64,000 nucleotides of DNA from an uncultured Colwellia sp. (GTDB taxonomy: Bacteria; Pseudomonadota; Gammaproteobacteria; Enterobacterales; Alteromonadaceae): the NCBI GenBank assembly GCA_913058395.1, contig CAJXQI010000002.1, positions 1-64,000 on the forward strand. The letters are read 5' to 3'. Below are positions 520 to 31,958 of this stretch, one piece after another. Position numbers and translations under genes: made by a program. The stretch's first letter is position 1. Every line of letters begins with the position of its first letter. The notes below the pieces were generated by a model. The model had not been told where the DNA came from. It saw only the letters and a program-made list of their open reading frames with translations, and did no database searches.

Positions 520-1149
520 TTAGGCTTCAGTTTGCCTTACTAAAATTGACACCCAATTAAAATAATCAGAGTTATGAATATCGATTTTAACTAACTCTTT
601 ATCTTTATGCGTTATCTTAAAAACCCCTTGTGCCTCAGGGAAGTAGATATCTATTTCAGAAGGGTAATTCCATTCTTCATTATATTCATCAAGAATGGAC
701 ATTAGTTGAGCATCACATCCATCAGGAAACTCAGAAGTTATTTTATTGGTAGCCATTAAATATAACTCTACTATATCTAAATATTCTTCTGCCTCTATCT
801 CACTAGGCAAGTGATAATCATGTTCTACTGTATTTCTAAATTTATTTATTCTGCGAATAATATTAGGAGCAGCAATACCACATTGCCCTAAGAAGTCTAA
901 TTTACTTGGGAAGTTATCTCTTTTTTTTATGTGGTTCCAACCAAATGCTGTAGCAAGTGCCTCAACTCTTAAATGCAACGCTTTTTTTGCATTAGACACT
1001 GCATTTACAAAATTTCGGTCGCATTTTTCTTGATCAAAATCTGACTTAGCAAACTCTAAATATGTTGATTCCCAAATATGCTCAACGGGATATTCAATTT
1101 GCTTATTCCCTGTAATGTAATACCACTCTAAAAATTTAGGACTATACAC
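520..1149 (-). CDS. HEPN-motif protein (possible Abi-like RNase)
   Basis: Contains an Rx4H motif (R-NTVE-H) inside a predicted helical region, as in HEPN domains; stand-alone gene between terminators. Confidence 0.4.
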   Translation of the reverse strand: MYSPKFLEWYYITGNKQIEYPVEHIWESTYLEFAKSDFDQEKCDRNFVNAVSNAKKALHLRVEALATAFGWNHIKKRDNFPSKLDFLGQCGIAAPNIIRRINKFRNTVEHDYHLPSEIEAEEYLDIVELYLMATNKITSEFPDGCDAQLMSILDEYNEEWNYPSEIDIYFPEAQGVFKITHKDKELVKIDIHNSDYFNWVSILVRQTEA

Positions 1150-1703
1150 TTTTGACTAGCTCCCTGAAGCCTAACAGCTTATTAGACAGATTAGATCCCA
1201 CTTTCTACGTGAGAACAATTCTAACTAATGTATTTTTATTCATTACAATATACATAGCTTATCTTTAATACTCAATAACTTACTGTGCTAACGTAAACAT
1301 TACTAAAGTAGAAAGGCAGATTAAGTCCACCTTTCTACACAAAATACGGAAAACAACAAACCTGTATATTTACACAGTACCTGTTAATTAAATATAAAGT
1401 CATTAAATTCACCTACTCGAATTTTCTGCTTAATTTCGTAGAAGTGAAAAAAGAATTGAATAAGCTACTAGAGTAATACAGGTGAAATCAGTACTAAAAA
1501 CCTCATTCATTTCCGATAATTCAAAAAGAAAAACAACGGCTACTCCTTCGAACAACGGTTTTCTCTTAATGTGGCGGTTAACTTCAAGGATGAAGTTATG
1601 TGGTTTTCACATAAATGTGATAAAAACCTGGAGATAGTGGTTTGAACTCTACAAATAGGTTCTGCGCTATACCCCCTATTTTTATTATACTTTAGAAAAG
1701 CAA

Positions 1704-1738
1704 AAAGCCCGTCAATCTTTCGATTAACGGGCTTTTCT
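1704..1738. terminator. bidirectional rho-independent terminator (GCCCGT..ACGGGC stem flanked by A-run and T-run)
   Basis: Perfect hairpin aaagcccgtcaatctttcgattaacgggctttt seen in sequence. Confidence 0.55.
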
Positions 1739-2008: not shown

Positions 2009-3322
2009 TTACTTTTTAAGCTTATCTTTCTTGACTAAAGTAGGTAAGATATCCTTAGAAATGTTTTCCTTTCGCTTTTGAATATGATTAATTTGCTTAT
2101 TTTTAGTTTGATCTAAGTTGACTTGGTTTAAATCATTTTGATGCAATGAGTAACCTACAAATATTATGTAGAGAAGCGCCATAAAACAAATTGACCACAC
2201 AGCTTTCTTCATAAAGCTAGAGTTTTTCTTAGCCTTATCTAATAAGACAATTAATTCATCATTAGTGTTCTTAGCCTGTTTTCTTATTTCGACATCTTCA
2301 TTTAAAATATCATACCGTTTAAATTCTGAATCAACTTGCTTCTTAATATGCTCAAATGTTGCATGATGAACACCCAATGATCTATAAACAATTAGAGTGG
2401 TAACTAACATGCCAATAGCAACAGCAATCCCATCGACTACATGGTTAATTTTCATTACTGCACCAATAACAATTAATGCACCGGGGATAGCAAGAGCCTT
2501 ATTTTGAGCGCTTGAAATGATCTCATTTATTTTAGATGTATAGGTTAAGTCTTGCTCATTAATCTCGTGCAAAACTTTATTTATGCTAAAGCGTTTTACG
2601 AAAAGTTCATAGTGCTCTACATAGCGCTTATGGAAATGGGGAATTGAGTAAATAAATTTTTTGAATATTTCAGTTTCACTATGGCAAACCGATATCAGCT
2701 CATGGAAAGCGGAACGCATAACTGACTTTCTTTCCGAGTCTTGGCTATCTCCAAGCTGAATTAAATTGCTTAACTTGTTAACTAAGGCAATTTGTTCTTC
2801 AATATCCTCAATGATTACAATATCTTTCCAACTAATAGATGGCTTGAATTCATACTTAGCTACTCCATCATCTGCTTCAATAATAAATAACAGTTTTCTA
2901 GAGCCTTTTGCCGTTCCTTGCTGTGGTTCACAATGATCCGCTAATTTTGGAAGTAACTGCCTTACCGTACAGAACAACACCAGAGATTGTTGATATTTAG
3001 TCTTATCAAAACTCGAATCTTTAGACTCAATAACATAAAAATATTCAGGTAATTTTGATGAATTTGAAACAGAAGAAAATAACTCTTCCCATGATTCGTA
3101 AACAGGACTTCTACTGGCCCAATTTGCTGCATTTAGTGAGAGAAATATTTTTTCATTTCTAACAGTTCTTGCTTCGTCAAACTCATAACCGACTGCTTCT
3201 AAAATAGTTTGAATTTCAGGTTTTATCTTAGGGTCAAGCTGAAGAGTTAACTCTCTATCTTGAACAGAAAAATCATTGTCATTTAATAAGTTTAGAAAAG
3301 CTTGAAACGATGCTTTATTCAT
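2009..3322 (-). CDS. multi-TM membrane protein of unknown function (second gene of two-gene operon)
   Basis: 437 aa ORF; two adjacent TM helices around aa 270-310 and a third near the C-terminus; 8-nt overlap with upstream gene. Confidence 0.6.
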   Translation of the reverse strand: MNKASFQAFLNLLNDNDFSVQDRELTLQLDPKIKPEIQTILEAVGYEFDEARTVRNEKIFLSLNAANWASRSPVYESWEELFSSVSNSSKLPEYFYVIESKDSSFDKTKYQQSLVLFCTVRQLLPKLADHCEPQQGTAKGSRKLLFIIEADDGVAKYEFKPSISWKDIVIIEDIEEQIALVNKLSNLIQLGDSQDSERKSVMRSAFHELISVCHSETEIFKKFIYSIPHFHKRYVEHYELFVKRFSINKVLHEINEQDLTYTSKINEIISSAQNKALAIPGALIVIGAVMKINHVVDGIAVAIGMLVTTLIVYRSLGVHHATFEHIKKQVDSEFKRYDILNEDVEIRKQAKNTNDELIVLLDKAKKNSSFMKKAVWSICFMALLYIIFVGYSLHQNDLNQVNLDQTKNKQINHIQKRKENISKDILPTLVKKDKLKK

Positions 3323-4559
3323 TTTCCATATTTGCAGATGCGAGTTTTTCTAACTCTTTTTTCTGCTCCTTGTTATCAATTAAAAAGGTTAATCTACCAT
3401 CTTCATATTCAACCTTACTGCCAGTGCCAACACATCCTATTTCTTTGCGTAAAATCTTTGCCGTATAACTCTTATCTCCAGCAAAAACTTCAATTAGTTT
3501 CCCTGCTTTCACACTATTTATAGTAGGTTCAATATGGTGGTTGATTTCATAACCATTATCATTAATAAATCCTTCAAAAGTTCCCTTTAATGGGGAGTCA
3601 TCAGGTAATAATCCATCTACAGTATTGCAGAGAGTTGATAATGAGATTGCCTTACCGTCCTTTTGTGCTTTTTCGAGTAATGTATCGACTTTTGCTGTCG
3701 CATCCATATAGAAATCATTTGCTAGTTTATATTTATCTTGGTAGTCACTTACAGCTTTTCTAAATTGCTTAATCGAGTGTGCATTATCTGCGTTGTTTTC
3801 ATCGCAACCAAAAGCAACCTTAAAGAACTCACCAGTAGACGTGCCTTTAATAAACTTTAAGTAAGTTTCTTCATCAGGTGTTTCAGGATAAACTTCATCA
3901 AATAAACCCAAATCAAAGAGGGCTGCTTGCCTCATAGCGTCAAGGTTTAAATGACTTGAATCTTTGGGCAATAGAGTAAACTCATCAAAATCAAATCCTT
4001 CTTTCTTAGTAACCCATATGGCCATAAGCCTGCCTAAATCGTCTTGCTCTTGATTTTTATAATGCATGAAGACAATATTACCGCCACCCACTTTATGCAC
4101 TCCGACCTCTTTTGCTGCTGCTACGAGAGAATCCATAAACTTCTTAACCAAAGATGTAAAGTTAATCTTTTTATTTATATAGTTATTTAAAATATTGGGT
4201 GCTGAATCTAAAGAATCATCCTGAGTAAAGTAGCTATGAAATTTGTTCTTATTTTTAAACTTCCGCTCTACCTCAGTAATTAATTTGAAACTTACTTGAT
4301 CATTTTCAGGCCAAAGCTCACCTTCTTTCACTTCAAGTTTAGAGCTTCCTTGTTGAGTAATAAATTGAGTTGTCATAGCTGCTACGGCTATTAATTCTGG
4401 CCGTTCTATATTTTCCAGCTCAATACAACGAGGGCACTCATCTAAAGATTCTTCATATGAAAAATCACACTCAACACAACTAAGCATAAATGCTCCTTTA
4501 ATCCTTATATCATTTATGCTCGATTTGAATACAAACCTGTTATATAAACAATACGCCAA
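3315..4559 (-). CDS. zinc-ribbon protein of unknown function (weak resemblance to NA37/YejK nucleoid-associated family)
   Basis: CxxC...CxxC near the N-terminus (CVECDF..CPRC); GGxIVFxHYK segment recalls the YejK family from memory only. Confidence 0.5.
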   Translation of the reverse strand: MAYCLYNRFVFKSSINDIRIKGAFMLSCVECDFSYEESLDECPRCIELENIERPELIAVAAMTTQFITQQGSSKLEVKEGELWPENDQVSFKLITEVERKFKNKNKFHSYFTQDDSLDSAPNILNNYINKKINFTSLVKKFMDSLVAAAKEVGVHKVGGGNIVFMHYKNQEQDDLGRLMAIWVTKKEGFDFDEFTLLPKDSSHLNLDAMRQAALFDLGLFDEVYPETPDEETYLKFIKGTSTGEFFKVAFGCDENNADNAHSIKQFRKAVSDYQDKYKLANDFYMDATAKVDTLLEKAQKDGKAISLSTLCNTVDGLLPDDSPLKGTFEGFINDNGYEINHHIEPTINSVKAGKLIEVFAGDKSYTAKILRKEIGCVGTGSKVEYEDGRLTFLIDNKEQKKELEKLASANMENE

Positions 4560-4762
4560 AAGATACTGTATGTAAATACAGTTAAGTAAAAAGGTAATTA
4601 CTGGTTGATCATAGATCTAGAAAAATGCCAATCCATCGAGCGGAGTAATCCCTTAAAGTTAAACACTAACACATTAATAATTATAATTAAAATATATAAG
4701 CGCCAGATAAATAACAACTTGATTTAACGCAAAGAGTATTAGTTATTTGGCTTCAAAATCAG

Positions 4763-4797
4763 CCAAAAATAAAGCCCCTTTAGGGGCTTTATTTTCA
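4763..4797. terminator. bidirectional rho-independent terminator (AAAGCCCC TTTA GGGGCTTT)
   Basis: Perfect hairpin with flanking A/T runs. Confidence 0.55.
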
Positions 4798-5104
4798 AAT
4801 TTATATTTTTATTAGTATCAATGCTTATTGGATTGCGGATGACCTACCCACAAGCCCAGTGCAAGAAGAGCGAAACGAACAACCCAATTATCTAAAAAAC
4901 AAATAACATTGTGTTTTATTTCCATAAAAATACTCCTTACATGGGGAACCGAACCCCAAAAATGATTAGTTAAAGCCAATACTGCATCGTACAATGAGAT
5001 TAAAATTAAAAACCACCCTTCCACACTCCAATAAGCACTAGAGTTGAATAATTATAATATACCTAAATAAAACAAATTGCTTCACAAAAACATCATACTA
5101 TTTA

Positions 5105-5662
5105 CTAAGCAAAGTCCTCAAAATAAATGGAAATATTCTGATCTAGTTCTTTTAGGACAAAAAGCATAAAAATAGAATGCTTTAATAGGCTTGATGTACG
5201 ATTTAAGTCACACCAAGTTTTATCACCATACTTTCCACCATGAAATAAGTTATTTCTAACTAGCTTAACTGAATCAATAACCCTTTTGAGCGAGGGGGAA
5301 TTGAGATCTATAGTTTGCTCTGTCCAGTGTGTTTTAATCTCTTTTACATCACTCTCAGTAACGTAGAATATTTTTTGATTGTTAGGGGCTGTTTCAGGAT
5401 CAGTAAGATAACAGTAGCTATTGCTGCACTTTGCGGTAACAGAAAATTTACTTTTGTTGGCTTTTAAAAATGCATCCCAATCAGGCTCAGCATTTTTACC
5501 TTCTTCTCTTTTTTTTATATAACCCCCTTCTTTTAAAGCAAATTCAAATCTAGAAAAAACAACAAAAAACTTGAATATTTCTTTGCGAAGTTCATCTTGT
5601 TCCCCCCTTTCAAACGAAAATATTTCAAACATCTTTGACATGAAATTTGTTAATGAAATCAT
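5105..5662 (-). CDS. HEPN-motif protein (Rx4H: R-NNLF-H)
   Basis: 185 aa ORF with a C-terminal VRNNLFHGG motif typical of HEPN RNase domains; isolated between terminators. Confidence 0.4.
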   Translation of the reverse strand: MISLTNFMSKMFEIFSFERGEQDELRKEIFKFFVVFSRFEFALKEGGYIKKREEGKNAEPDWDAFLKANKSKFSVTAKCSNSYCYLTDPETAPNNQKIFYVTESDVKEIKTHWTEQTIDLNSPSLKRVIDSVKLVRNNLFHGGKYGDKTWCDLNRTSSLLKHSIFMLFVLKELDQNISIYFEDFA

Positions 5663-5898: not shown

Positions 5899-7029
5899 TT
5901 AATCAAGTTTAACGGTATTCCCTTCCACATCAATCTTTACTGCTGAAATTTTTTCAATAGCTAATATATCTTTCTCTGATAAGGCAGGGGTGTCTGTATA
6001 ATAAAATTTTGAGTGAGATTTCTTGATATATTTTGCCTGTTTTGACACCCATTCTAATCGACTTGTTGTAAAAATTGCCTTATTAGTTAGGAATAAACGG
6101 CTTAATACGGAGGGTATGTAAGCCTTTCTATCGAATGACTCAAAAGGATTACCAATAGAAAGCAGTGTCAATCTAGTTAAATTTTCACTTAAATTTGCTT
6201 TTTGAGCGGATTTAAAAATACCAGTAGGCATGAAAACACCTACAGTAATCCCTTTCTTTGATGCATCAAATGCCATTTTTTTATCAAAAACAGAGCTACC
6301 AAAGAGAATACTAAGGCGATGCTCTTCGCAATAATTAACCAGTTTTTTCACTAACTCAATCTCCTCCAAACTTGGTTTGGAGCTTGAAATTAGTGAGATA
6401 TCATAACTTTCAACACTAATATTATTCGAATTAAATAAATACAGTTCTTTTTCTGTAAACAATTTCAATTGTTCAGGGTAATCCGCTGATTTACTGGATA
6501 TAGTCTTAATTCTTTCTTGAGCTAATAAACTAATATTCTCAATTGTATTAGTCTCAACTTTACCAGCCTTTTTCGAACTATTTGGTTCAAACACAAGAAT
6601 TTTATGCTGTGAATCTGCAAGGTAATTTTCAATAAGTTCTTTAACCCTTATCCAATCTAGACCTCCGTGCCCACAACCCAAAGCGGGTAAAGTAATTGTA
6701 GAATAGCTCTTTTTGTCTAGATACTCAGATAGCCATTTAAGTCCATTTTCAACATACTCATACTCAGATGGTTTTCTCCAATGATTTTTAGTCGGAAAGT
6801 TAATAATCTCAACTCCCTTAGTAAACATATCATCATTTTTCCATACTGAAGGTACGCCCGGCCTAATCAGGCCCAACTTACATTCTTTTGCATACTCTTT
6901 AAACATTTCAGGGTATTTATTTTTAAAAGCTAGAGCAACACCTGCTCCCATAACACCTACACAATTTACGGTATTGACCCTTATGTCTGCATCATACTCA
7001 AAAAAATCTCCTTTAACGAACTCTAGCAT
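5899..7029 (-). CDS. darG: DarG antitoxin: N-terminal macrodomain (DNA ADP-ribosylglycohydrolase) plus C-terminal DarT-binding region
   Basis: N-terminus VNTVNCVGVMGAGVALAFKNKYPEMF and LPALGCGHGGLDW match the DarG/TARG1-type macrodomain signature; 7-nt overlap with upstream darT-like gene. Confidence 0.8.
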   Translation of the reverse strand: MLEFVKGDFFEYDADIRVNTVNCVGVMGAGVALAFKNKYPEMFKEYAKECKLGLIRPGVPSVWKNDDMFTKGVEIINFPTKNHWRKPSEYEYVENGLKWLSEYLDKKSYSTITLPALGCGHGGLDWIRVKELIENYLADSQHKILVFEPNSSKKAGKVETNTIENISLLAQERIKTISSKSADYPEQLKLFTEKELYLFNSNNISVESYDISLISSSKPSLEEIELVKKLVNYCEEHRLSILFGSSVFDKKMAFDASKKGITVGVFMPTGIFKSAQKANLSENLTRLTLLSIGNPFESFDRKAYIPSVLSRLFLTNKAIFTTSRLEWVSKQAKYIKKSHSKFYYTDTPALSEKDILAIEKISAVKIDVEGNTVKLD

Positions 7030-8366
7030 GGTTCTTTACACTCTAGTGCATCAATAGCTTTTAACTTTAGTGCTTTGATTTTATGTTCATTCAAAAATAC
7101 CCACATAGGATTTATTGAAATCATATCTGCCTTACCTAATGCTATAATCATATTCAACTCTTCTTCAGATTCAATAATATTAAAAAGTTGTTGTTCACTA
7201 CGTCCTTTAGCAACAATATCCCCAATAAGGTCATCATAAGTTACCAACATTACTATCTTTCTAACTAGCTCACGATCGAGACTACCAATATCTTCAGTGA
7301 GAATTCGTTTTAGCATAGGGAGTGATTTAACAGCGTGATCATTATCTGCACGCTCCATTCCTTTATCTCCCCAACGACTCTTTGGGCCTTTACCTATATC
7401 ATGTAAATAGGCAGACAATAAGACTATTTCTTTATTTTCTTTAGATAAGCTATTATATTCTGGCATTGTCTTTACTGTAGTTGCAACTTTCCGACTATGT
7501 GTTCCAACATCATCAGAGTGAGGCCCATAGCTTGCTTTTAAGCCATCAATATCTCCAAGCTCCTTTATTATAGAAAAATCATTACTAATCGAGTTTATGG
7601 CACTTTTGATATTTTCAAACTTAGTTTGACTCTTAAGGTCCTTACAAATTTCTGAAATAGTTACATCTACATTATGCTTCAAAAATTGGGGGCCTGTAAT
7701 TATGGACTTTTGTCCGCCATCATAAAAATTGATATAATAATGTTCTTGTCCAAATATAATTTTTGGAATTGGCTTGTTTTTAGCTTTAAAAACTTTTATT
7801 ACCTCCTCTTTTATCAATTCATTCCATACAACTAAATGTGCTACAGTTCTCATATCTACAACATTAGGAATCAATAACTCCGCCATTTTCTGATGACGAA
7901 ACTCCTCAGTTGGACAACCCCATTTTTTAGAATCAATTGCCTCCCAGTTTAATGACTGCAATAAAGCAACGTCTTTTGAGTCATAAAAATTAGGAGGGAT
8001 GTCAGTATTAGCTGATGCGTCAGAAAACACAACGCCTTGAATTTTTTCGATTACATCAATTGGAACTGCGAAGTAAATAATAAGGGGCTGGTCGATATTT
8101 TTTTTATTTATGACACCTAATTGCATTGGTGTTTTTTTAGAGAAATAAAAAGGGACATAATCATGAACAACCTTTCCGCTAGAGCAAGGAATAGGCATTG
8201 TACTTCTTCTTCCTTGTATCCTTTCTTCAGCAATATTTTTATGGGAAATATCAAGGTGCTTTTTCTGGTTAGTACACAAAATTCCACTATCAATAATTGA
8301 TTCTAAATTATCAAACAGTGTAAAGTGGTACGCGTATCTTCCTTTTAAATTTTCTGGGATTGTCAT
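7023..8366 (-). CDS. darT: DarT (DUF4433) DNA ADP-ribosyltransferase toxin fused to a C-terminal HD-domain phosphohydrolase
   Basis: YHFTLFDNLESII...HDYVPFYF...AELLIP motifs match DarT/DUF4433; C-terminal H...LHDIGKG...D motifs match the HD domain; 447 aa versus about 220 aa for a typical DarT. Confidence 0.8.
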   Translation of the reverse strand: MTIPENLKGRYAYHFTLFDNLESIIDSGILCTNQKKHLDISHKNIAEERIQGRRSTMPIPCSSGKVVHDYVPFYFSKKTPMQLGVINKKNIDQPLIIYFAVPIDVIEKIQGVVFSDASANTDIPPNFYDSKDVALLQSLNWEAIDSKKWGCPTEEFRHQKMAELLIPNVVDMRTVAHLVVWNELIKEEVIKVFKAKNKPIPKIIFGQEHYYINFYDGGQKSIITGPQFLKHNVDVTISEICKDLKSQTKFENIKSAINSISNDFSIIKELGDIDGLKASYGPHSDDVGTHSRKVATTVKTMPEYNSLSKENKEIVLLSAYLHDIGKGPKSRWGDKGMERADNDHAVKSLPMLKRILTEDIGSLDRELVRKIVMLVTYDDLIGDIVAKGRSEQQLFNIIESEEELNMIIALGKADMISINPMWVFLNEHKIKALKLKAIDALECKEPC

Positions 8367-9725: not shown

Positions 9726-10274
9726 ATGAGAGATGAAAACAATGATGACTACATGACAAGCAAACAACTCTTTCGAGGTTTAATGAGTGCTGTCGAAGAT
9801 GCTTCCAGAAAACGTATTGCTAATTCAATATCAAGAAAATTAGAAAGTTTGGCTATTCTAGGTTATCACACAGGATCTATAGTGCCATTTGGCTACCGTA
9901 TGGTAAAAGTCGATACTGATAACTTTGGAAATATTGTAATAAGGAACAAACTGATAGTTAGTCCGAATGAATCTCTTATTGTAAAAACATTATTTAAATT
10001 GGCAAATGAACTAATTGATCAAGACAAGTTTAGTTACACTGCTATTGCCCTAATACTCAATGACAAGGGGCTACATAGACGAAAATCAATATGGACTCCA
10101 ACAAATGTTAAAAGTACCTTAATAAATACTCGTTATTACGGAGTGACTATCTATGGAGCTAAACGTACTAAGCTCAACTCACATAAAAAACCAATTGAAA
10201 TAGATTGCCTAGCTATCGTTTCAAAACGGTTATTTGAAAAGGTAAACCATTTTATTACTGAACTTCGAATTTAA
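9726..10274 (+). pseudogene. large serine recombinase fragment (recombinase domain only, no catalytic resolvase domain)
   Basis: WTPTNVKSTLINTRYYG recombinase-domain motif; the ORF lacks the N-terminal S-recombinase catalytic domain. Confidence 0.55.
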
Positions 10275-17934: not shown

Positions 17935-19125
17935 ATGGGCAAATCCGTCCAAAAAATTACTGAAAACGTTAGCCTCATTGCATCTACTGATACGTGGATT
18001 GAAGGGCTAGCGATACAGCAACTGATTAAAACATCAGAATTAAGTGGTATGCACAGCGTTGCTGGCATGCCTGATTTGCACCCAGGGAGAGGTTATCCCA
18101 TCGGTGCTGCATTTTTTACAACTAACAAAATTTACCCTGCGCTTGTAGGGAATGATATTGGCTGTGGCATGTCACTTTGGCAAACCTCAGCAAAAGTATC
18201 CAAAGTTAACTTAGATAAACTGGCTAAGAAGTTTGAGCATGTAGAGCAGCCTTTAGATGAAAGCTGGTCTGAAATTATTGAAAACCGAAAGACTGATAAA
18301 GGTATAACAACCGATAGCTATGATCGTGCTCTAGGCACCATTGGTGGCGGTAATCACTTTGCAGAATTTCAGGCCATCGATGAGGTGTATGACCAAATTG
18401 CGTTAGATGAGTTAGGGCTTAATAAAAAGCATTTACAGCTTCTTGTTCACTCAGGCTCTAGAGGTTTAGGTCAATCAATCTTGGTTGATCATATAACTAA
18501 GCATAACCACGATGGCTTAAACCTTGATGATAACGACTTTCAAGATTACATGGCCAAACATGATGAAGCGGTTCGTTGGGCTGAGCTAAATCGTGAACTG
18601 ATTGCCAAACGCTTTTTAGAAGCAATTAGAGCGAATGGTGACTGCGCATTAGACATTAACCACAACTTGGTTTCGTCAAAAAACATTGATGGTTGTGATG
18701 GCTGGCTACACCGCAAAGGCGCAACACCAAGTGATAAAGGTTATGTGGTTATACCTGGTTCACGCGGTGATTATAGCTATTTGGTGAAACCCATTACCTT
18801 GAATGAAAAGCTTAGTAATAGTGAAACTAGCGAAAACTTAAATACGAGCCTGTTTTCTTTAGCGCATGGCGCAGGTAGAAAGTGGAAACGTGGCGAGTGT
18901 CATGGCCGTCTAGGGCATAAATATAATCGTGAAGACTTATATCGCACCGCACTCGGTAGTCGAGTGGTTTGTGGCAATAAAGAGCTTTTGTATGATGAAG
19001 CACCGCAAGCTTATAAGAAATGTGAAACCGTTATCAGCGATATGGTTGATGCGGGGTTAATTGAGGTTATAGCTAAGCTACGTCCGGTATTAACCTTTAA
19101 AACAAATGGAGATTGTTCATCATGA
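17935..19125 (+). CDS. rtcB: RtcB-family RNA ligase, release-factor-H-coupled paralogue (RtcB2)
   Basis: [17 protein letters not shown] and GGGNHF metal-binding motifs; translationally coupled to prfH. Confidence 0.9.
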
Positions 19126-20378: not shown

Positions 20379-20768
20379 ATGAATACATCAAAAAATATAT
20401 TGGAATGTTGTGCTTCGTTATGCGAAGGCGATGGCATTTCACCACGTCATGAAAAAAACAAAGAGAATTCTGTTGTTCATGACAATAGACGGCTGTGCCG
20501 TCAGGTTCAAAAACTTGTCCGTTTAGCCATTACTGAACTTGGTTTAGATGGATGGGATATCGTAAGTGTTAAACAAAAACAGGGGAAAACTACCTTAATC
20601 TTAACTATAGCGCCAACAGAGAATGCATCATTTTCAGACTGTGAATCGGCTTTGGAGTGGCTGAGGAGCCATCAAAATGAAATAAGGTTTATTGTTGCAA
20701 ATGGTATAAACAGAAAATCAGTTCCTGCACTGCACTTTGGGCTAGTAGCGGAGGCTGATTATGAATAA
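20379..20768 (+). CDS. RbfA-like (ribosome-binding factor A fold) protein, translationally coupled to RtcB3
   Basis: RRLCRQVQKLVRLAITELG...IVSVK...TTLILTI...RKSVPALHF aligns by eye with E. coli RbfA (RVAQEMQKEIALILQREI...TVSGVEMSRD...AKVYVTF...RLRIVPELTF); 8-nt overlap with rtcB3. Confidence 0.45.
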   Translation: MNTSKNILECCASLCEGDGISPRHEKNKENSVVHDNRRLCRQVQKLVRLAITELGLDGWDIVSVKQKQGKTTLILTIAPTENASFSDCESALEWLRSHQNEIRFIVANGINRKSVPALHFGLVAEADYE

Positions 20769-21882
20769 ATCAAAAGCAAGTTATCGCCATTGGTTAAGTG
20801 AAAAGCTTAGTCCTGAATTAGATCAACAAACTAAACGTTTACTGCATGCAAAAGGTGTGAAGCATGTGAGATTAATGGCTGATGCACATCTAGCCAACGA
20901 TGTTTGTGTTGGTTGTGTTTTGGCAACTGAAAAGCTGATATATCCGGCTGCAATTGGTGGTGATATTGGGTGTGGCATGTTATCGGTGCCACTAGATATT
21001 GATGCAAACTTTATTCAAAGCCAGCAGGCTGAGTTAATTTTTAAAAACTTAACTCATATGGTTCCCATAATGAAGCAATCTCAAGGTATTTCCTTTGAGT
21101 TAGATAAAAAATTATCTAATGAAAGGTTGCAACATATCGCCTTACGAGATGGATGTTATCAATTAGGCACGTTGGGCCGAGGTAATCATTTTCTGGAGTT
21201 GCAACGATGTGTTGAGACAGGACAATTATGGTTAATGATACATACTGGGTCTCGCGGTATGGGGCCTGCAATTCGAGACTATCATTTACATCATGCCTCT
21301 GGAAAATCAGGTGGCCTTAAATACTTGGATATTGATAGTGAACAAGGAAAGGCTTACTACAACGACCTTGGGTGGGCAAGAGAATATGCCAATGCAAACA
21401 GACTGCAAATTTTAGAACGATGTAGAGCACTATTTAGTGACTTATTCTCAGTCTCGGTTGATGAAAACAGGATGATTCATTGTGATCACAACCACCTTGA
21501 TATGGCGACTCTAAATAAACAAGATCTACTAATTCACCGCAAAGGAGCATGCTCGGTAACGAAAGGAGAAACAGCAATAATTCCCGGAAGTATGGGAAGT
21601 GACAGCTTTCATGTTATTGGAAAAGGAAATGCTGATTCGCTGTTTTCTAGTTCTCATGGCGCTGGTCGATGTATGAGCAGACAACTAGCTAGGAAAACTA
21701 TCACAAGTAATAATTTGAGCAAACAACTTTCAGGTATTTACTACCAACAAGAGAAATTACGTTTGCTGACTGAAGAAGCCCCAACCAGTTACAAGAATAT
21801 TGAAAAGGTAATGTCGTTACAGAAAAAGTTAGTCAAAGTGACTAGGCGATTAAGTCCTGTTTTAAGTTACAAAGGCACTTAA
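20761..21882 (+). CDS. rtcB: RtcB-family RNA ligase, third paralogue (RtcB3, 373 aa)
   Basis: GGDIGCGM, GRGNHFLE and HTGSRG motifs. Confidence 0.85.
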   Translation: MNKSKASYRHWLSEKLSPELDQQTKRLLHAKGVKHVRLMADAHLANDVCVGCVLATEKLIYPAAIGGDIGCGMLSVPLDIDANFIQSQQAELIFKNLTHMVPIMKQSQGISFELDKKLSNERLQHIALRDGCYQLGTLGRGNHFLELQRCVETGQLWLMIHTGSRGMGPAIRDYHLHHASGKSGGLKYLDIDSEQGKAYYNDLGWAREYANANRLQILERCRALFSDLFSVSVDENRMIHCDHNHLDMATLNKQDLLIHRKGACSVTKGETAIIPGSMGSDSFHVIGKGNADSLFSSSHGAGRCMSRQLARKTITSNNLSKQLSGIYYQQEKLRLLTEEAPTSYKNIEKVMSLQKKLVKVTRRLSPVLSYKGT

Positions 21883-24025: not shown

Positions 24026-24847
24026 CTAATTTGACTGTAATACCTCAAGAAATAACTCATTCAAAACATCAAACCCAACAGTTCTCTCGTTAGACTTTTC
24101 ACCATACCTTTCAAGACGTTCAAGTTCAGCTTCAATGAACTTATTGAGTACTGGTATTGCTGGCGCGACTTCTTTCTCTAGGCTAACTCGCTTGCGTTCC
24201 AATAATTTAGATATTTCTGCATCAAGTAGCTTATCGTCTGCAACCAACGTTCTTAGCTGATCAAAAACTATAGGCGCAGGCTCGTTGTACTTCTCTATCC
24301 ATTTAATGGCTAATAACGGTCGTAGTACGTAAAAGTACTTTTTGAGCGGCACCATGTCGCTTTTCAAATACCCACGATAGTTAGTCTTAGCCATACTACG
24401 GTAGTGATAAACTCCTTTTGCATTGGAATAGACACTTGTTATCAAATCTCTAGCTTTTGCGGCAAAATGATTATCATCAACATACACGATTGGCGACTGT
24501 AACCATTCAACTATGGCAGGGTTGGATTTCCAAAAAAGCTTTAATGCTTTTCGGATATCCCAGCCATTGATATCTATCTCATCAACAATCGGATATTCGA
24601 TAACATCACGTTTGTCTTCAAGGTTAACCGCTAAGTACCAGTCTTTAGGATGAGCATATATAAACCTAACATCAAAATCGCTATTTGGAGATTCAAATCC
24701 CCATGCGCGGCTACCAGACTCAATAGCATAGAGTATTTTGACTCCATGCTCGGCTTCTGCCGCCTTTATTCTGCGTAAGATTTCTTTTTGAACATCTTCG
24801 TCTATTTTATTCTTTTGTCTTTGTAAATTATTAGATTCCATTTTCAT
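24026..24847 (-). CDS. Pol-beta-superfamily nucleotidyltransferase (RlaP-like; predicted RNA-repair associated)
   Basis: ESGSRAWGFESPNSDFDVRFIY: GS...D.D NTase catalytic motif; sits immediately after cca with zero intergenic gap. Confidence 0.55.
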   Translation of the reverse strand: MKMESNNLQRQKNKIDEDVQKEILRRIKAAEAEHGVKILYAIESGSRAWGFESPNSDFDVRFIYAHPKDWYLAVNLEDKRDVIEYPIVDEIDINGWDIRKALKLFWKSNPAIVEWLQSPIVYVDDNHFAAKARDLITSVYSNAKGVYHYRSMAKTNYRGYLKSDMVPLKKYFYVLRPLLAIKWIEKYNEPAPIVFDQLRTLVADDKLLDAEISKLLERKRVSLEKEVAPAIPVLNKFIEAELERLERYGEKSNERTVGFDVLNELFLEVLQSN

Positions 24848-26116
24848 CTACCTAAGAGCTATCCGCTCATTTTCTGTTTTACTCTCTGCTAAAAAAACAC
24901 GTAAAGACTTTATTTCAGCTTCACGTACAGCACCACCTATATCAGGGCCTTTTTTTCCTTGTGAAATTGCCAATTGTACAGCGGCTTTTTTATCCAACTG
25001 AGTTAACGCGTTTAGTAATGATTGCGCTAATAACAATTGTGGGTAAGCTCTATTAACAAAGGTTTCTCCTCTGCCTTGAGCATCACATAAACATGCTTGG
25101 AGAAACTGCTTAAAACGTATTGGATGCTCTAGTGCGTTCATATTTTCAATGATTAATTTGTGCAATTTTTTTGGCGTAAGCTCAAATAGCTTGTGGCATC
25201 TTGTATGATTATCACTGGTTAAGATGGCTAACGCTTTCAATCGATTGGGCACTTTTAGCCGTTCACAAAATGCTTCAATAACTGCAATACCTTCATGTTC
25301 ATGACCTAGCAAATTTCCTCGTTCTTGATGGCAATAAGCTTTACCAAAATCATGAGTTAATGCTGCAAATCGAGTGTCAATATCAAAACTTAAATCCGCT
25401 GCTCGCTTCACAACGAGCATTGTATGTGTATAAACATCACCTTCTGGGTGATGGTTTTCAGGCTGTGGTACACCTACCATTGCTTCTAATTCTGGGAATA
25501 TTCCTAACCCGTTAAGCGCTTCAAAAAATAATTGCGGATGTTTTTCACCAAGCGCTTTTTCAGTTTCTTTCCATACACGCTCAGACACTAAATGAGTTAA
25601 TTCACCATTATCCCTAAGCTGTTTCATAAGCGCATATGTATCAGGATGAATTGTCCATTCTTCACCGTACCGGGCTAGAAAGCGAGCAACACGCAGTACA
25701 CGCACAGGGTCTTCTGCAAAAGCATTAGTTGTGTGTCTTAATACCTTATTTTTTAAATCTGTTTGGCCATTAAAAGGGTCGATAACTTTGCCATCACCAT
25801 TTAACGCCATTGAATTTATGGTTAAATCGCGTCTAGCTAAATCTTCTTCTAAAGTAACGGATGTGCTGGCGTCTACTGCAAAACCTGTATACCCCTTACC
25901 ATTTTTTCGCTCTTTACGTGCTAAGGCATATTCATCTTTAGTTTCTGGGTGCAAGAAAACAGGAAAATCACTTCCGACGGATTGAAAACCTAGTGATGCC
26001 ATTGTTTCTGTTGTTTCACCCACAACAACATAATCTTGGTCTTTTGATTTATGGCCAAGTAACGAGTCCCTAACTGCGCCTCCTACTAAATAGACATTTT
26101 CCAATTTCTTATTCAT
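24848..26116 (-). CDS. cca: multifunctional CCA tRNA nucleotidyltransferase with HD phosphohydrolase domain
   Basis: NVYLVGGAVRDSLLG...DQDYVV head domain; HD domain (HTMLV...LTHDFGK). Confidence 0.9.
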   Translation of the reverse strand: MNKKLENVYLVGGAVRDSLLGHKSKDQDYVVVGETTETMASLGFQSVGSDFPVFLHPETKDEYALARKERKNGKGYTGFAVDASTSVTLEEDLARRDLTINSMALNGDGKVIDPFNGQTDLKNKVLRHTTNAFAEDPVRVLRVARFLARYGEEWTIHPDTYALMKQLRDNGELTHLVSERVWKETEKALGEKHPQLFFEALNGLGIFPELEAMVGVPQPENHHPEGDVYTHTMLVVKRAADLSFDIDTRFAALTHDFGKAYCHQERGNLLGHEHEGIAVIEAFCERLKVPNRLKALAILTSDNHTRCHKLFELTPKKLHKLIIENMNALEHPIRFKQFLQACLCDAQGRGETFVNRAYPQLLLAQSLLNALTQLDKKAAVQLAISQGKKGPDIGGAVREAEIKSLRVFLAESKTENERIALR

Positions 26117-26180
26117 TACTTTTCCATTACCTTCTTTATTAGATTTGGCAATCCGCTTTTTTGATTAATATTTATTAATC

Positions 26181-27215
26181 TTACTCTAGTGAAACCCTCC
26201 ACAATGTATCAGTTAATTGCTTCAACAGGATCTCTTTTCCTAAAAGTTGTTTAATAACATCAACATTGGTCGATGTATGCAAGCTTGGCTTTGTTGTTGT
26301 AAAACTTCCACTTCCCGCCAACGCAATCAATAATAACAATTGATCGGCTAAGTGCTCTTCAACAGCAGCTTGAGCATAAATATACTTATTTACTCTCCCA
26401 GCAGCCCGTTTTGCTACTCTTTCTGCCGAAACACCCAACTCGCCAACAACCTCAAATACATTGCGATGTGTTTTACTATCAATACATAACTGAAAACTAT
26501 TACCTGGGCCAGGGGTAGTGACTTCCTGAACTTGACCTAAAGCATCCTGCCAATCAAGAATTTCCTGAGCCTTTGTAATTTCTCTTTGCCCTATACTTGC
26601 TGGCAGTAAGCTTATCAGAGCATTAAGAGAGCAATTATCCATATCACTAGCAAAATCACATCCTGCATCAGTCAAATGAATTGGCTTTAATGCTTGGGTT
26701 GGCTCAATAACAATTTGCCATTTACCACCGCCAGCAGGATAAAAACCTAACGTAGAAATACGAACGTTGCAGTTCACTCCCATACTTTTTAACACAGGCA
26801 AAAATGATTGTTCCAAAAAACTCAATGAAGGAGACATACCATTATGTGTACCCCCCTCAAATGTAATCGTTGAACTTCCCTTTGCTAATGCCAATACGGG
26901 TAAAATAGTCTGACACACGAGAACCGTACTTCCTGCGGTGCCAATGGCAAATTGAAAATTGCCTGACTTAACTTTCCCAGGAGAAAATCTGATGCGAGTT
27001 GAGCCAAGTTCAACACCTTCTGTAATAGCACCACAAATTTCTTGTGCTGCTAAAACGGAAGTTAAATGTTGACGTAACAAGCCTGTTTTCTTTCTTCCTG
27101 CTCTGATATTTATCAGTTCGATGTTTTGCTGAGTAAAAATAGATAGTGTTAGTGCCGTCCTTAGCACCTGACCACCACCTTCTCCTTGTGAACCATCGAT
27201 TATCATGTATTTCAT
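26181..27215 (-). CDS. rtcA: RNA 3'-terminal phosphate cyclase
   Basis: IIDGSQGEGGGQVLRTALTLS signature. Confidence 0.9.
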   Translation of the reverse strand: MKYMIIDGSQGEGGGQVLRTALTLSIFTQQNIELINIRAGRKKTGLLRQHLTSVLAAQEICGAITEGVELGSTRIRFSPGKVKSGNFQFAIGTAGSTVLVCQTILPVLALAKGSSTITFEGGTHNGMSPSLSFLEQSFLPVLKSMGVNCNVRISTLGFYPAGGGKWQIVIEPTQALKPIHLTDAGCDFASDMDNCSLNALISLLPASIGQREITKAQEILDWQDALGQVQEVTTPGPGNSFQLCIDSKTHRNVFEVVGELGVSAERVAKRAAGRVNKYIYAQAAVEEHLADQLLLLIALAGSGSFTTTKPSLHTSTNVDVIKQLLGKEILLKQLTDTLWRVSLE

Positions 27216-27240
27216 TATTTATCCTTCATAATCGTTAACA

Positions 27241-28464: not shown

Positions 28465-28553
28465 TATTTTTTCCTTAATTCTCTTCTACTTTTTAGTAAG
28501 CGGGCTACAGCTAATTCTGTAGCCCTTTGTCTTATGTTTGCGTTATGTGCTGG

Positions 28554-29708: not shown

Positions 29709-29800
29709 CTTTAATTTCCTTATTTAATCCTCTTTCGAGGAGGTGTTAGTAAGGGTTGAATACTTATTTGATAAAGGCCCAAAACTTTATTGTTATGGGG

Positions 29801-29816
29801 AGCATCCTGCTTGCCA
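29801..29816 (-). promoter_or_regulatory. sigma-54 (-24/-12) promoter candidate for the SPFH-rtcB-rtcA-cca operon
   Basis: Minus strand reads TGGCAA-GCAGG-ATGCT versus consensus TGGCAC-N5-TTGCW; about 95 nt upstream of the SPFH start; divergent RtcR is a sigma-54 activator. Confidence 0.4.
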
Positions 29817-30027: not shown

Positions 30028-30029
30028 AG

Positions 30030-30356: not shown

Positions 30357-31958
30357 GTGAAGAATACTGTTGTTGTGAGTTTGATAGGAACTCAATTAGA
30401 CTATGTTGGTAAAAGAGTTGATAAATGGGCCAAATGGCGACCTAATGTCAGTTTGTGTAGCCAGGAAGACTTAATAGTTAGTCAGCTTCATATGTTGCAT
30501 GATAATCATAGCAGTCGTCTTGCTAATAATGTGGCTGTAGATATTGAATCTGTTTCTCCTGAAACTAATGTTTCATTACATCAAGTCAATTTTCGCGACC
30601 CTTGGGATTTTGAAGAAGTTTATGCCAAACTTTTCGATTGGTGCCAAGAGCAAAAATTCGATACCGATCAAAATGATTATTTATTCCATATAACAACAGG
30701 CACTCACGTTGTTCAGATTTGTAGTTACCTCCTTACAGAGAGTCGTCACTTTCCAGGCCGCCTAATTCAAACATCACCCGATCACAACAATAAAAACAAA
30801 TCGATTGGCCGTATACAAATTATCGATTTAGATCTATCTAAATATGACCAATTAGCTACAAGGTTTGACGTTGAACACCAAGAAGGTAAAGAGTTCTTAA
30901 AAGGTGGTATTGAGACTAAAAATAAGGCTTTTAACAGACTCATTACTCAGATAGAAAAAGTCGCTATTCGATCACAAGATCCCATGTTGTTAACTGGACC
31001 AACAGGAGCTGGTAAAAGCCAGCTAGCAACACGTATATTCCAATTAAAGAAAAAGCGCTCGATGTTAAAAGGCACATTAGTCTCGGTGAACTGTGCAACC
31101 TTAAAAGGTGAAAATGCTATGGCAGCATTGTTTGGCCATACCAAAGGAGCATTCACAGGTGCAGTAAAATCTAGAGATGGTTTTTTGCTTAGGGCTAATA
31201 ACGGTGTTTTGTTCTTGGATGAAATTGGTGAACTTGGCTTGGAAGAACAAGCCATGCTGCTACATGCTATAGAAAATAAAACTTTCCACCCTGTGGGCAG
31301 TGATACGCCAGTTCAAAGTAATTTTCAACTAATCGCAGGAACCAATAGAGATTTAAAACAGGAGATTGAAAAAGGGTCTTTCCGTGAAGATTTATTAGCT
31401 CGTATTAACCTTTGGACATATGAGTTACCTGCGCTTAAAGATAGAAAAGAAGATATTCCTGTTAACGTTGACTATGAGATAGATCTTTTTGCCAAAAAAA
31501 CAGGGCACCGTGTGCAATTTAACAAAGAAGCACAAAGTACCTTTATTGGCTTCTCTACTTCTAACGAGGCGCTATGGTCTGGGAACTTTCGTGATTTAAG
31601 CTCTGCGATAACCCGGCTGTGTACTTTGGCAGATTCTTCTAGAATCACTGTAGATGATGTCGAAGAAGAAGTAGAACGATTAAAACGAGCATGGAACCCA
31701 TCAGGCCAGCAATCAACTAACAATATTTTATATAAGTACCTTCTAAAGGAACAAGTTGAAAATTTAGATACGTTTGATGCTAACCAACTTAGGTATGTAC
31801 TTGATACATGCCAACGCCATAATAGTATGGCCTCAGCAGGTAGAGAGCTATTTGATGTTAGCCGAATCTTAAAATCTCAACCAAATGATTCCAGCCGCCT
31901 ACAGAAGTACTTGAGTAAATTTGGTTTGAAATGGGCGGATATTTTAGCAAAAAGTTAG
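30357..31958 (+). CDS. rtcR: RtcR, sigma-54-dependent transcriptional activator with N-terminal CARF-like sensor domain
   Basis: GTG start; N-terminus MKNTVVVSLIGTQLDYVG as in E. coli RtcR; AAA+ sigma-54 interaction domain (LTGPTGAGKS, GVLFLDEIGEL). Confidence 0.9.
   Translation: MKNTVVVSLIGTQLDYVGKRVDKWAKWRPNVSLCSQEDLIVSQLHMLHDNHSSRLANNVAVDIESVSPETNVSLHQVNFRDPWDFEEVYAKLFDWCQEQKFDTDQNDYLFHITTGTHVVQICSYLLTESRHFPGRLIQTSPDHNNKNKSIGRIQIIDLDLSKYDQLATRFDVEHQEGKEFLKGGIETKNKAFNRLITQIEKVAIRSQDPMLLTGPTGAGKSQLATRIFQLKKKRSMLKGTLVSVNCATLKGENAMAALFGHTKGAFTGAVKSRDGFLLRANNGVLFLDEIGELGLEEQAMLLHAIENKTFHPVGSDTPVQSNFQLIAGTNRDLKQEIEKGSFREDLLARINLWTYELPALKDRKEDIPVNVDYEIDLFAKKTGHRVQFNKEAQSTFIGFSTSNEALWSGNFRDLSSAITRLCTLADSSRITVDDVEEEVERLKRAWNPSGQQSTNNILYKYLLKEQVENLDTFDANQLRYVLDTCQRHNSMASAGRELFDVSRILKSQPNDSSRLQKYLSKFGLKWADILAKS

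What the first reader, a model, noticed from the sequence alone, without database searches (positions are those of the whole stretch)
2009..4559. Uncharacterised two-gene operon (zinc-ribbon protein plus multi-TM protein) insulated by terminators in a defence island
A 414-aa protein with an N-terminal CxxC..CxxC ribbon, weakly resembling NA37/YejK nucleoid-associated proteins around GGNIVFMHYK, overlaps by 8 nt a 437-aa protein. The second protein has a soluble N-domain, a central TM hairpin and a C-terminal TM helix with a poly-Lys tail. The pair is flanked by hairpin terminators at 4763-4797 and 1704-1738. Its neighbours are the HEPN, DarTG and NERD genes. A sensor plus membrane-effector architecture is typical of abortive-infection systems. 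Neither protein matches a family I recognise.
Basis: inference. Interest (0 to 1): 0.7.

Follow-up and report, generated by a model that had tools for sequence, protein, structure and literature searches.

The report
DS-1-type nucleoid-protein anti-phage gene pair

Summary
Two tightly coupled minus-strand genes lie between two strong hairpin terminators. They sit in a low-GC island with DarTG and a NERD gene, on a Colwelliaceae chromosome.

Gene A really starts at ATG 4487 (390 aa, not 414). It is a clear NA37/YejK-family protein, not a weak one (Pfam 83.8 bits, cut-off 24.6), with a conserved N-terminal Cys4 ribbon.

Both proteins pass NCBIfam equivalog cut-offs for "DS1_1_antiphage" (404.7 bits, cut-off 330) and "DS1_2_antiphage" (375.4 bits, cut-off 315). 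They align full-length with E. coli DS-1A and DS-1B (33% and 30% identity). DS-1 was cloned and shown to protect E. coli against phages Bas1, Bas26, T3, T5 and T7 (DefensePredictor, Science 2026).

A NA37 gene directly preceded the B gene in every informative locus I examined.

An April 2026 preprint (PANGU) gives the likely mechanism for this architecture. The clamp sits on the chromosome, phage-induced DNA degradation releases it, and it then binds the partner's cytoplasmic domain and triggers abortive infection. I could not test whether DS-1 belongs to PANGU type II. The reported phage spectra differ.

Verdict: new member of a known kind. Interest is modest.

The parts
4763..4798 (-). Intrinsic-terminator-like hairpin (16-bp stem, 4-nt loop, T-run). 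It ends the upstream minus-strand transcription unit and insulates the pair.
   Evidence: sequence
4548..4576 (-). Sigma-70-like promoter candidate, TTTACA-17-TATTGT, about 60 nt upstream of the ATG of gene A. It overlaps the spurious TTG start at 4559.
   Evidence: 9 of 12 matches; a consensus match only, function not shown
4493..4499 (-). Ribosome-binding site AAAGGAG, 5 nt upstream of ATG 4487.
3315..4487 (-). Gene A (DS-1A-like), 390 aa: a YejK/NA37-family nucleoid-associated protein with an N-terminal Cys4 zinc ribbon.
   Evidence: NCBIfam NF053868 404.7 bits (cut-off 330). Pfam NA37 E 1.9e-23. 33% identity to E. coli DS-1A, E 2e-69. The AlphaFold2 model matches only YejK 9BE2 (E 4e-13).
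4425..4478 (-). Zinc-ribbon-like CxxC-x10-CxxC (Cys4, 7, 18, 21 of the 390-aa protein).
   Evidence: All four Cys are at least 90% conserved in 37 homologues. The ribbon is present in E. coli DS-1A. It is absent from YejK-like partners of distant B relatives.
3369..4337 (-). NA37/YejK DNA-clamp domain of A (residues about 51-373).
3315..3322 (-). 8-nt overlap ATGAATAA between the stop of A and the start of B, suggesting translational coupling.
   Evidence: Similar overlaps or gaps of 10 nt or less occur in related loci.
2009..3322 (-). Gene B (DS-1B-like), 437 aa: the membrane-anchored partner.
   Evidence: NCBIfam NF053869 375.4 bits (cut-off 315). 30% identity to E. coli DS-1B, E 3e-46. AlphaFold2 mean pLDDT 82.4.
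2513..3322 (-). Soluble, mildly acidic N-terminal region of B. Residues 1-225 form an alpha/beta domain and a long juxtamembrane helix follows. Net charge is -9 over residues 1-270. This is the presumed NAP-binding module.
   Evidence: The NAP-binding role is inferred from the PANGU Pag2B 'DMK' domain.
2381..2494 (-). Hydrophobic helical hairpin of B (residues about 277-314). Together with the preceding helix it is the most conserved segment of the family.
2141..2200 (-). C-terminal TM helix of B (residues about 375-394).
2012..2140 (-). Variable, disordered, Lys-rich C-terminal tail of B, probably periplasmic.
   Evidence: pLDDT below 50. Not conserved. Replaced by SH3_3 (PF08239) domains in some homologues.
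1702..1737 (-). Intrinsic-terminator-like hairpin (16-bp stem, T-run), about 270 nt downstream of the B stop codon.
   Evidence: sequence

Best explanation
Window 2009-4487 (minus strand) encodes a Colwelliaceae orthologue of the DS-1 anti-phage system.

What is shown by homology:
- Gene A is a YejK-like protein. YejK is a dimeric clamp that binds double-stranded DNA without sequence specificity. Gene A adds an N-terminal zinc ribbon.
- Gene B is a membrane protein. It has a cytoplasmic alpha/beta N-domain, a long juxtamembrane helix, a hydrophobic hairpin, a cytoplasmic helical arm, a final TM helix and a variable periplasmic tail.
- The two genes are translationally coupled and always inherited together.

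Likely mechanism, inferred by analogy with the PANGU type II model:
1. In uninfected cells, A is held on chromosomal DNA, away from B.
2. When a phage degrades or remodels the nucleoid, A is freed.
3. Free A binds the acidic cytoplasmic domain of B.
4. This switches B's conserved hairpin and TM region into a membrane-damaging state.
5. The infected cell stops supporting phage growth (abortive infection).

The family assignment and the defence role are well supported. The sensing step and the membrane-damage step have not been shown for any DS-1 member.
For: - Family: both proteins exceed NCBIfam equivalog cut-offs for DS1_1 and DS1_2 anti-phage proteins.
- Homology: BLASTP against the cloned E. 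coli DS-1A and DS-1B gives E 2e-69 and 3e-46 over nearly full length. Gene order and ribbon are the same.
[quoted passage not shown] It is flagged as replicated.
- Fold of A: the model matches only YejK 9BE2. YejK is a DNA clamp with an electropositive pore (PMC11229321).
- Gene linkage: a NA37 gene lies immediately upstream of B in all 4 GTDB loci, in all 5 plasmid loci inspected (of 6 hits), and in 3 distant B-family members.
- Context: DarTG and NERD are next door. In E. coli and Klebsiella the pair sits in a lambdoid prophage accessory-gene slot between Q and holin.
- Mechanistic precedent (bioRxiv 10.64898/2026.04.06.716658): both genes of the NAP plus TM operon PANGU-Ecu are needed, and neither construct was toxic. 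GFP-tagged Pag2A leaves the nucleoid on T4 infection. The N-domain of Pag2B binds Pag2A with KD 19 nM. Growth curves look like abortive infection.
- Charge: the N-domain of B is acidic across the family, with net charge -1 to -15.
Against: - No experiment exists for this Colwelliaceae pair. Identity to the tested E. coli proteins is only 30-33%.
- The reported spectra differ. PANGU-Ecu blocks T4, and T1 and T5 escape it. DS-1 has rows for Bas1, Bas3, Bas26, T3, T5, T7 and SECphi27 in the part of Table S7 read, and no T4 row.
- The preprint does not mention a zinc ribbon.
- The acidity of B's N-domain is modest (pI 5.4), and A itself is acidic (pI 4.9). DNA mimicry is therefore untested.
- The YejK pore residues R173, R176 and K177 do not align with basic residues in A.
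- The hairpin helices are short (about 14 and 16 residues). A true pore-forming role is speculative.
Confidence: 0.6

Rival explanations
1. Kiwa-like logic with the roles reversed. B is the sensor: it detects phage attachment, DNA injection or envelope damage at the membrane through its periplasmic tail. A is the effector: it is recruited or released at the entry site and clamps incoming phage DNA, using the zinc ribbon as an extra nucleic-acid contact. Phage replication or transcription is blocked without necessarily killing the cell.
For: - The tail after the last TM helix is hypervariable. In several homologues it carries an SH3_3 (PF08239) domain, which is typically extracytoplasmic and cell-wall binding. 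This suggests the family interacts with the envelope.
- A is a DNA clamp by homology.
- The strongest DS-1 effect, on Bas1, is complete loss of plaques with no small-plaque flag.
- How Pag2B is engaged is stated to be unknown.
Against: - Neither protein hits the PADLOC Kiwa models, and the fold search finds only YejK.
- The most conserved part of B is the juxtamembrane helix and hairpin, not the periplasmic tail. Many homologues have almost no tail.
- In the studied NAP systems the NAP is nucleoid-bound before infection, and growth curves indicate abortive infection.
- YejK-type clamps bind DNA without sequence specificity, so discrimination between self and phage DNA would be unexplained.
Confidence: 0.2
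2. A selfish maintenance module (toxin-antitoxin-like addiction). B is a membrane toxin and A its antidote. Their main role is to stabilise the island or prophage, and any phage effect is secondary.
For: - The pair is tight, translationally coupled and located on mobile elements: prophages, plasmids and an island with a recombinase remnant.
- B has a membrane-protein architecture.
Against: - In the NAP plus TM operon tested in E. coli, neither gene alone was toxic and both were needed for defence.
- E. coli plasmid NZ_CP146678 carries an intact A with a B annotated as two shorter ORFs. This argues against A being indispensable to neutralise B, but not strongly.
- The DS-1 families are curated as anti-phage equivalogs.
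Confidence: 0.07
3. A non-defence accessory nucleoid protein. A would be an element-borne YejK/NdpA paralogue that regulates or organises the DNA of its mobile element, in the way NdpA2 controls transfer of the ICE PAPI-1. B would be a membrane tether.
For: - YejK-like paralogues on mobile elements can be regulators (PMC8565334; seen only as title and abstract in the listing).
- The pair occurs on plasmids and prophages.
Against: - There is a direct phage-protection phenotype for the E. coli orthologue.
- Both proteins are equivalog-level matches to the anti-phage families.
- The score against the housekeeping YejK equivalog NF001557 is far below its cut-off (69.5 against 341).
- The locus sits in a defence island.
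Confidence: 0.05

Closest known systems
DS-1 (DefensePredictor-discovered system 1; E. coli WP_000355468.1 and WP_000150292.1; NCBIfam NF053868 and NF053869)
   Same: - Gene order A then B, with tight coupling.
- A has a Cys4 ribbon plus a YejK/NA37 domain and a similar length (390 against 391 aa).
- B has the same soluble N-domain, hairpin and TM layout.
- Both proteins exceed the equivalog cut-offs and align full-length.
   Different: - Identity is only 33% (A) and 30% (B).
- The host is a marine Colwelliaceae chromosome island next to DarTG and NERD, not an enterobacterial lambdoid prophage Q-holin slot.
- B here has a 43-residue Lys-rich tail and a conserved 'ADHCEP..G.AKG' motif. E. coli DS-1B lacks both.
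- This copy has not been tested experimentally.
PANGU type II (Pag2A NAP plus Pag2B TM effector; bioRxiv 10.64898/2026.04.06.716658)
   Same: - A bicistronic operon encoding a YejK-like NAP and a protein with an N-terminal soluble acidic domain and a C-terminal TM region.
- A defence-island context.
- An E. coli representative exists.
   Different: - Sequence identity could not be checked, because the sequences are not held.
- The reported spectrum (T4 sensitive; T1 and T5 escape) differs from that of DS-1.
- The preprint does not mention a zinc ribbon.
- DNA mimicry by B's N-domain is not demonstrated here.
PANGU type I (Pag1A NAP plus Pag1B GRel toxSAS)
   Same: - A YejK-like NAP acts as sensor.
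- The proposed logic is release from degraded chromosomal DNA, followed by binding of a DNA-mimic domain on the effector.
   Different: The effector is a soluble alarmone synthetase, not a membrane protein. B has no toxSAS similarity.
E. coli YejK (NdpA), the housekeeping nucleoid-associated protein (PDB 9BE2)
   Same: The same NA37 fold. It is the only PDB match to the A model, and profile-to-sequence E is 2.7e-9.
   Different: - A scores 69.5 bits against a cut-off of 341 for the YejK equivalog.
- A has an extra N-terminal zinc ribbon.
- A is encoded with an obligate membrane partner on mobile DNA.
- The YejK pore residues R173, R176 and K177 are not conserved in the alignment.
Kiwa (KwaA membrane protein plus KwaB DNA-binding protein)
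   Same: The concept is the same: a two-gene system with one membrane protein and one DNA-binding protein. This comparison rests on my own knowledge of Kiwa.
   Different: - There is no sequence match to the PADLOC Kiwa models.
- There is no structural match in the PDB search for A.
- The gene order is opposite and the folds are different.

Membership tests
DS-1 anti-phage system (NCBIfam NF053868 and NF053869) | Protein A scores above the curated equivalog cut-off of NF053868 (DS1_1_antiphage, nucleoid-associated anti-phage protein). | tested here: met
   404.7 bits against cut-off 330; profile positions 5-363 of 369 covered.
DS-1 anti-phage system (NCBIfam NF053868 and NF053869) | Protein B scores above the curated equivalog cut-off of NF053869 (DS1_2_antiphage). 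| tested here: met
   375.4 bits against cut-off 315; profile positions 1-337 of 337 covered.
DS-1 anti-phage system (NCBIfam NF053868 and NF053869) | The two genes are adjacent, on the same strand, with A upstream of B. | tested here: met
   8-nt overlap in the window. The same arrangement holds in E. coli DS-1 and in every informative related locus examined.
DS-1 anti-phage system (NCBIfam NF053868 and NF053869) | Domain architecture of the validated pair: a zinc ribbon plus YejK/NA37 in A, and a hypothetical protein of about 400 aa with C-terminal hydrophobic segments in B. | tested here: met
DS-1 anti-phage system (NCBIfam NF053868 and NF053869) | Confers protection against phage when expressed. 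| not testable with these tools
   Shown only for the E. coli orthologue (PMC13092281 Table S7).
PANGU type II (Pag2A and Pag2B) | A YejK-like NAP encoded in a two-gene operon with a TM protein. | tested here: met
PANGU type II (Pag2A and Pag2B) | Sequence homology to Pag2A and Pag2B (Cluster 2 HMMs). | not testable with these tools
   Neither sequences nor accessions are in the text held, and no supplements are held.
PANGU type II (Pag2A and Pag2B) | The effector's N-terminal domain is an acidic DNA mimic ('DMK') that binds the NAP. | tested here: inconclusive
   The N-domain has net charge -9 (pI 5.4), and the range across 34 homologues is -1 to -15. No electrostatic surface or complex model could be computed.
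PANGU type II (Pag2A and Pag2B) | NAP relocalisation from the nucleoid on infection, with an abortive-infection phenotype. | not testable with these tools
   Experimental. Reported for PANGU-Ecu only.
Housekeeping YejK (NCBIfam NF001557) | Score above the equivalog cut-off. | tested here: not met
   69.5 bits against cut-off 341. A belongs to the NA37 Pfam family but is not the YejK orthologue.
Pfam NA37 (PF04245) | Score above the gathering threshold with near-full profile coverage. | tested here: met
   83.8 bits against 24.6; profile positions 19-320 of 325 covered. The fold matches 9BE2.
Kiwa (KwaA and KwaB) | A match to the KwaA or KwaB models. | tested here: not met
   No PADLOC hit at E up to 0.1 for either protein.

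The most novel reading that the evidence does not exclude
The ribbon-bearing DS-1 clade may not work like PANGU. B, with its hypervariable and sometimes SH3-bearing periplasmic tail, could be an envelope-level sensor of phage entry. The zinc-ribbon YejK clamp could be the effector that traps incoming phage DNA at the membrane. This would be a Kiwa-like logic built from unrelated folds. It would explain why the DS-1 spectrum (T1-like Bas1, T3, T5, T7; no T4 row) differs from that of the published NAP plus TM system.
Probability: 0.15. Interest if true: 0.6.

Novelty: new member of a known kind. Interest (0 to 1): 0.3.

Why it matters
- The result extends an E. coli-validated but mechanistically unexplained defence system, DS-1, to cold-marine Alteromonadales.
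- The membrane partner belongs to a sizeable family: 670 cluster representatives at 50% identity. In every informative locus examined it is tied to a YejK-like gene.
- The analysis flags family-level features that could guide mechanistic work:
  - a ribbon found only in one clade;
  - a conserved juxtamembrane helix and hairpin as the likely functional core;
  - periplasmic SH3 variants.
- For the genome scan, the finding should be re-labelled from 'uncharacterised candidate' to 'known defence system, diverged orthologue'.

Tried and rejected
- PADLOC-DB v2.0 (2023): no hit for either protein. The library predates DS-1, so this says nothing either way.
- tblastn of B against INPHARED phages: no match, although PHROG families exist for both proteins.
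- Foldseek of B against BFVD: nothing below E 0.06.
- The afdb50 library was not available.
- Profile search of B against PDB sequences: nothing.
- The genome-contig scan with the B alignment used one peptide pattern and returned only 4 loci. It under-samples the family, so the exhaustive representative search was used for family size.
- HEPN assignment of the flanking 209-aa and 185-aa ORFs: no HMM support even at E up to 10. It is kept only as a motif observation.
- I tried to map the YejK DNA-contact residues onto A through the HMM alignment. The R173, R176 and K177 equivalents are not basic in A, and the second patch lies outside the aligned range. No conclusion about DNA contacts follows.
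- I tried to establish whether DS-1 is PANGU type II. No Pag2 sequences were obtainable.
- A Kiwa relationship was considered and rejected at the sequence and fold level.
Full report
**Observation**

They overlap by 8 nt. The junction reads ...AAT ATG GAA AAT GAA TAA AGC..., so the ATG of B lies inside the last codons of A.

The 414-aa reading of A is an over-extension, for three reasons:
- All 36 homologues begin at 'ML.C.EC'.
- ATG 4487 is preceded by AAAGGAG at a 5-nt spacing.
- A promoter-like TTTACA-17-TATTGT site at 4576..4548 overlaps the TTG.

A is therefore 390 aa, at 3315..4487. The four ribbon cysteines (C4, C7, C18, C21) are at least 90% conserved.

For B, hydropathy and an AlphaFold2 model (mean pLDDT 82.4) agree on this layout:
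- an alpha/beta N-domain, residues 1-225;
- a long helix, residues 227-276;
- a hydrophobic hairpin, about residues 277-314;
- a helical arm;
- a TM helix, about residues 375-394;
- a disordered Lys-rich tail.

The two flanking hairpins are real. Each has a 16-bp stem followed by a T-run, at 4798..4763 and 1737..1702 on the minus strand. DarT (fused to an HD domain), DarG and a NERD/zinc-ribbon protein are confirmed as neighbours. The 'HEPN' neighbours have only Rx4H motifs and no HMM support. The first 10 kb has a lower GC content (0.29-0.34) than the rest of the window. A glucose-6-phosphate dehydrogenase in the window is 96% identical to that of Cognaticolwellia mytili, so the host is a Colwelliaceae chromosome.

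**What it is**

A is a solid NA37/YejK-family protein. Pfam PF04245 gives E 1.9e-23 and 83.8 bits against a cut-off of 24.6, over profile positions 19-320 of 325.

The decisive result comes from NCBIfam:
- A scores 404.7 bits (cut-off 330) on NF053868, 'DS1_1_antiphage, nucleoid-associated anti-phage protein'.
- B scores 375.4 bits (cut-off 315) on NF053869, 'DS1_2_antiphage'.
- Both models are equivalogs.

PHROGs 3767 and 5023 also match, at about E 1e-66.

'DS-1' is DefensePredictor-discovered system 1 (DeWeirdt et al., Science 2026, PMC13092281; bioRxiv January 2025). It is an E. coli two-gene unit, WP_000355468.1 (391 aa, ribbon plus YejK/NA37) and WP_000150292.1 (404 aa). [quoted passage not shown] Table S7 gives these -log(EOP) values:

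| Phage | -log(EOP) |
|---|---|
| Bas1 | 7.6 |
| Bas26 | 2.7 |
| T3 | 1.7 |
| Bas3 | 1.7 |
| T5 | 1.0 |
| T7 | 0.9 |

The system is flagged as replicated. The paper says only that a YejK domain was newly validated in defence. It gives no mechanism for DS-1.

The window proteins align with the E. coli pair over nearly their full length: 33% identity with E 2e-69 for A, and 30% identity with E 3e-46 for B.

**Conservation of the pair**

The B family is not small. A profile search of 1.84 billion cluster representatives finds 670 with E up to 1e-3, 243 with E up to 1e-10 and 65 with E up to 1e-30.

A NA37 gene lies immediately upstream of B in every informative locus examined. The spacing is an overlap or a gap of about 11 nt or less. 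The loci are:
- four GTDB species genomes: Marinospirillum, Aliidiomarina, Thalassotalea and Pseudoteredinibacter;
- the five plasmid loci inspected, out of six hits: Paraglaciecola, two E. coli, Klebsiella and Pseudomonas;
- three distant B-family members.

The zinc ribbon is limited to the closer clade, which includes the window copy and E. coli DS-1A. The more distant NAP partners lack it.

In E. coli the DS-1 DNA is present in 106 of 5426 complete genomes at 99% identity or more, beside the prophage antiterminator Q gene. In the E. coli and Klebsiella loci inspected it lies between Q and the holin, on the opposite strand. That position is a classic slot for accessory genes in lambdoid prophages.

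**Structure**

The A model (pLDDT 76.2) matches only YejK 9BE2 in the PDB, with E 4e-13 and TM-scores of 0.53 and 0.61. The profile-to-sequence E-value is 2.7e-9. YejK is a dimeric, asymmetric clamp that binds DNA without sequence specificity and has an electropositive pore of about 30 Å (PMC11229321).

Within the B family, the most conserved stretch is 'DL.YTSKINEI.S.AQ.KAL.IPGA', the helix that runs into the hydrophobic hairpin. The C-terminal tail is hypervariable, and in some homologues an SH3_3 domain replaces it. This points to a periplasmic location for the C-terminus.

**Mechanism**

A bioRxiv preprint (10.64898/2026.04.06.716658, April 2026) describes 'PANGU' systems, in which a YejK-like NAP is the infection sensor.

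- Type I pairs the NAP with a toxSAS enzyme. The preprint shows chromosomal binding, release after T4-induced genome degradation, and binding to a DNA-mimic domain of the effector.
- Type II pairs the NAP (Pag2A) with a TM protein (Pag2B). Pag2B has an N-terminal acidic 'DMK' domain and a C-terminal TM region.
  - Both genes are required, and neither construct was toxic.
  - Pag2A-GFP leaves the nucleoid on T4 infection.
  - The DMK domain binds Pag2A with KD 19 nM.
  - Growth curves indicate abortive infection.
  - How Pag2B is activated is stated to be unknown.

The window pair has this architecture. The N-domain of B is acidic across the family, with net charge from -1 to -15 and -9 in the window copy. 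The best-supported model is therefore as follows. A is held on the chromosome. Phage-induced loss of intact DNA releases it. Free A binds the cytoplasmic domain of B. The conserved hairpin and TM module of B then damages the membrane and aborts the infection.

**Caveats**

- I could not obtain the Pag2 sequences, so membership of PANGU type II is untested.
- The spectra differ. PANGU-Ecu blocks T4, and T1 and T5 escape it. DS-1 acts on Bas1, Bas26, T3, T5 and T7, and has no T4 row in the part of Table S7 read. Differences in expression could contribute.
- The preprint does not mention a zinc ribbon.
- The YejK pore residues do not align with basic residues in A.

A rival reading reverses the roles: B senses envelope events and A traps phage DNA. 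The SH3 and variable periplasmic tails favour it, and it remains open at about 0.2. Toxin-antitoxin and regulatory or tethering roles are less likely.

**Comparison and novelty**

The locus passes all the testable membership criteria for DS-1. It fails the criterion for the housekeeping YejK orthologue (69.5 bits against a cut-off of 341). It shows no relationship to Kiwa.

It is a new, diverged member of a known and experimentally validated kind. What remains interesting lies at the family level: the unknown action of the membrane partner, the role of the ribbon, and whether DS-1 and PANGU type II are the same system. Interest score: 0.3.

Noticed in passing
window 29888-30100 (-), with 24026-31958: Three abutting tRNA-like genes of about 72 nt lie directly upstream of a minus-strand operon and are divergent from rtcR (30357..31958, +). 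ARAGORN calls them anticodon TTA ('stop', would read UAA), Arg-TCG and Ser-TGA. Rfam confirms the Arg and Ser ones as tRNA at about 61 bits. The TTA one is below the gathering score. A 71-nt 'tRNA-Ser' lacks the long variable arm expected of a serine tRNA. The operon encodes an SPFH/Band 7 protein, an RtcB-like ligase, the RtcA cyclase, a CCA-adding enzyme and RlaP. The trio may be tRNA-like substrates or decoys within an RtcR-controlled RNA-repair operon.
   Followed up: partly
window 520-1149 (-) and 5105-5662 (-): Both small ORFs flanking the DS-1 pair carry Rx4H motifs ('FRNTVEH' and 'VRNNLFH'), as HEPN nucleases do. Neither matches any HEPN model in Pfam, NCBIfam or PADLOC. The 185-aa ORF matches only phrog_19013, which has no known function. 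They could be unrecognised HEPN-like defence genes.
   Followed up: partly
window 5899-8366 (-): The DarTG pair has an unusual architecture. DarT (447 aa) is fused to a C-terminal HD phosphohydrolase domain. DarG (376 aa) carries, after its macro domain, a weak DprA-like (DNA_processg_A) and ShosA-like region.
   Followed up: no
P0034, P0044, P0046-P0049 (homologues of B): Some B-family members carry a C-terminal SH3_3 (PF08239) domain after the last TM helix, where the window copy has its Lys-rich tail. This implies a periplasmic C-terminus and possibly contact with the cell wall.
   Followed up: partly
L007 (E. coli CP088862), L014, L015 (Klebsiella pBio30); E. coli genomes: Enterobacterial DS-1 sits on the opposite strand between the antiterminator Q gene and the holin of lambdoid prophages. 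It is present in 106 of 5426 complete E. coli genomes at 99% identity or more. In one plasmid copy (L014) B is annotated as two shorter ORFs, consistent with a disrupted gene.
   Followed up: yes
window 17935-19125 (+), 20761-21882 (+), 27241-28464 (-): There are three RtcB-family ligase paralogues within 11 kb. One matches the PrfH-associated 'release_rtcB' type. This is an unusually dense cluster of RNA-repair genes.
   Followed up: no
window 33645-35301 and 9726-10274: A full-length large serine recombinase (524 aa) overlaps by a few bases a canonical tRNA-Ser(TGA) gene on the opposite strand (35214-35301). The region around 32-33 kb has very low GC (0.285). This is probably a second integrated element. 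A truncated serine-recombinase ORF (182 aa, 'Recombinase' domain only) lies beyond the NERD gene of the defence island.
   Followed up: no
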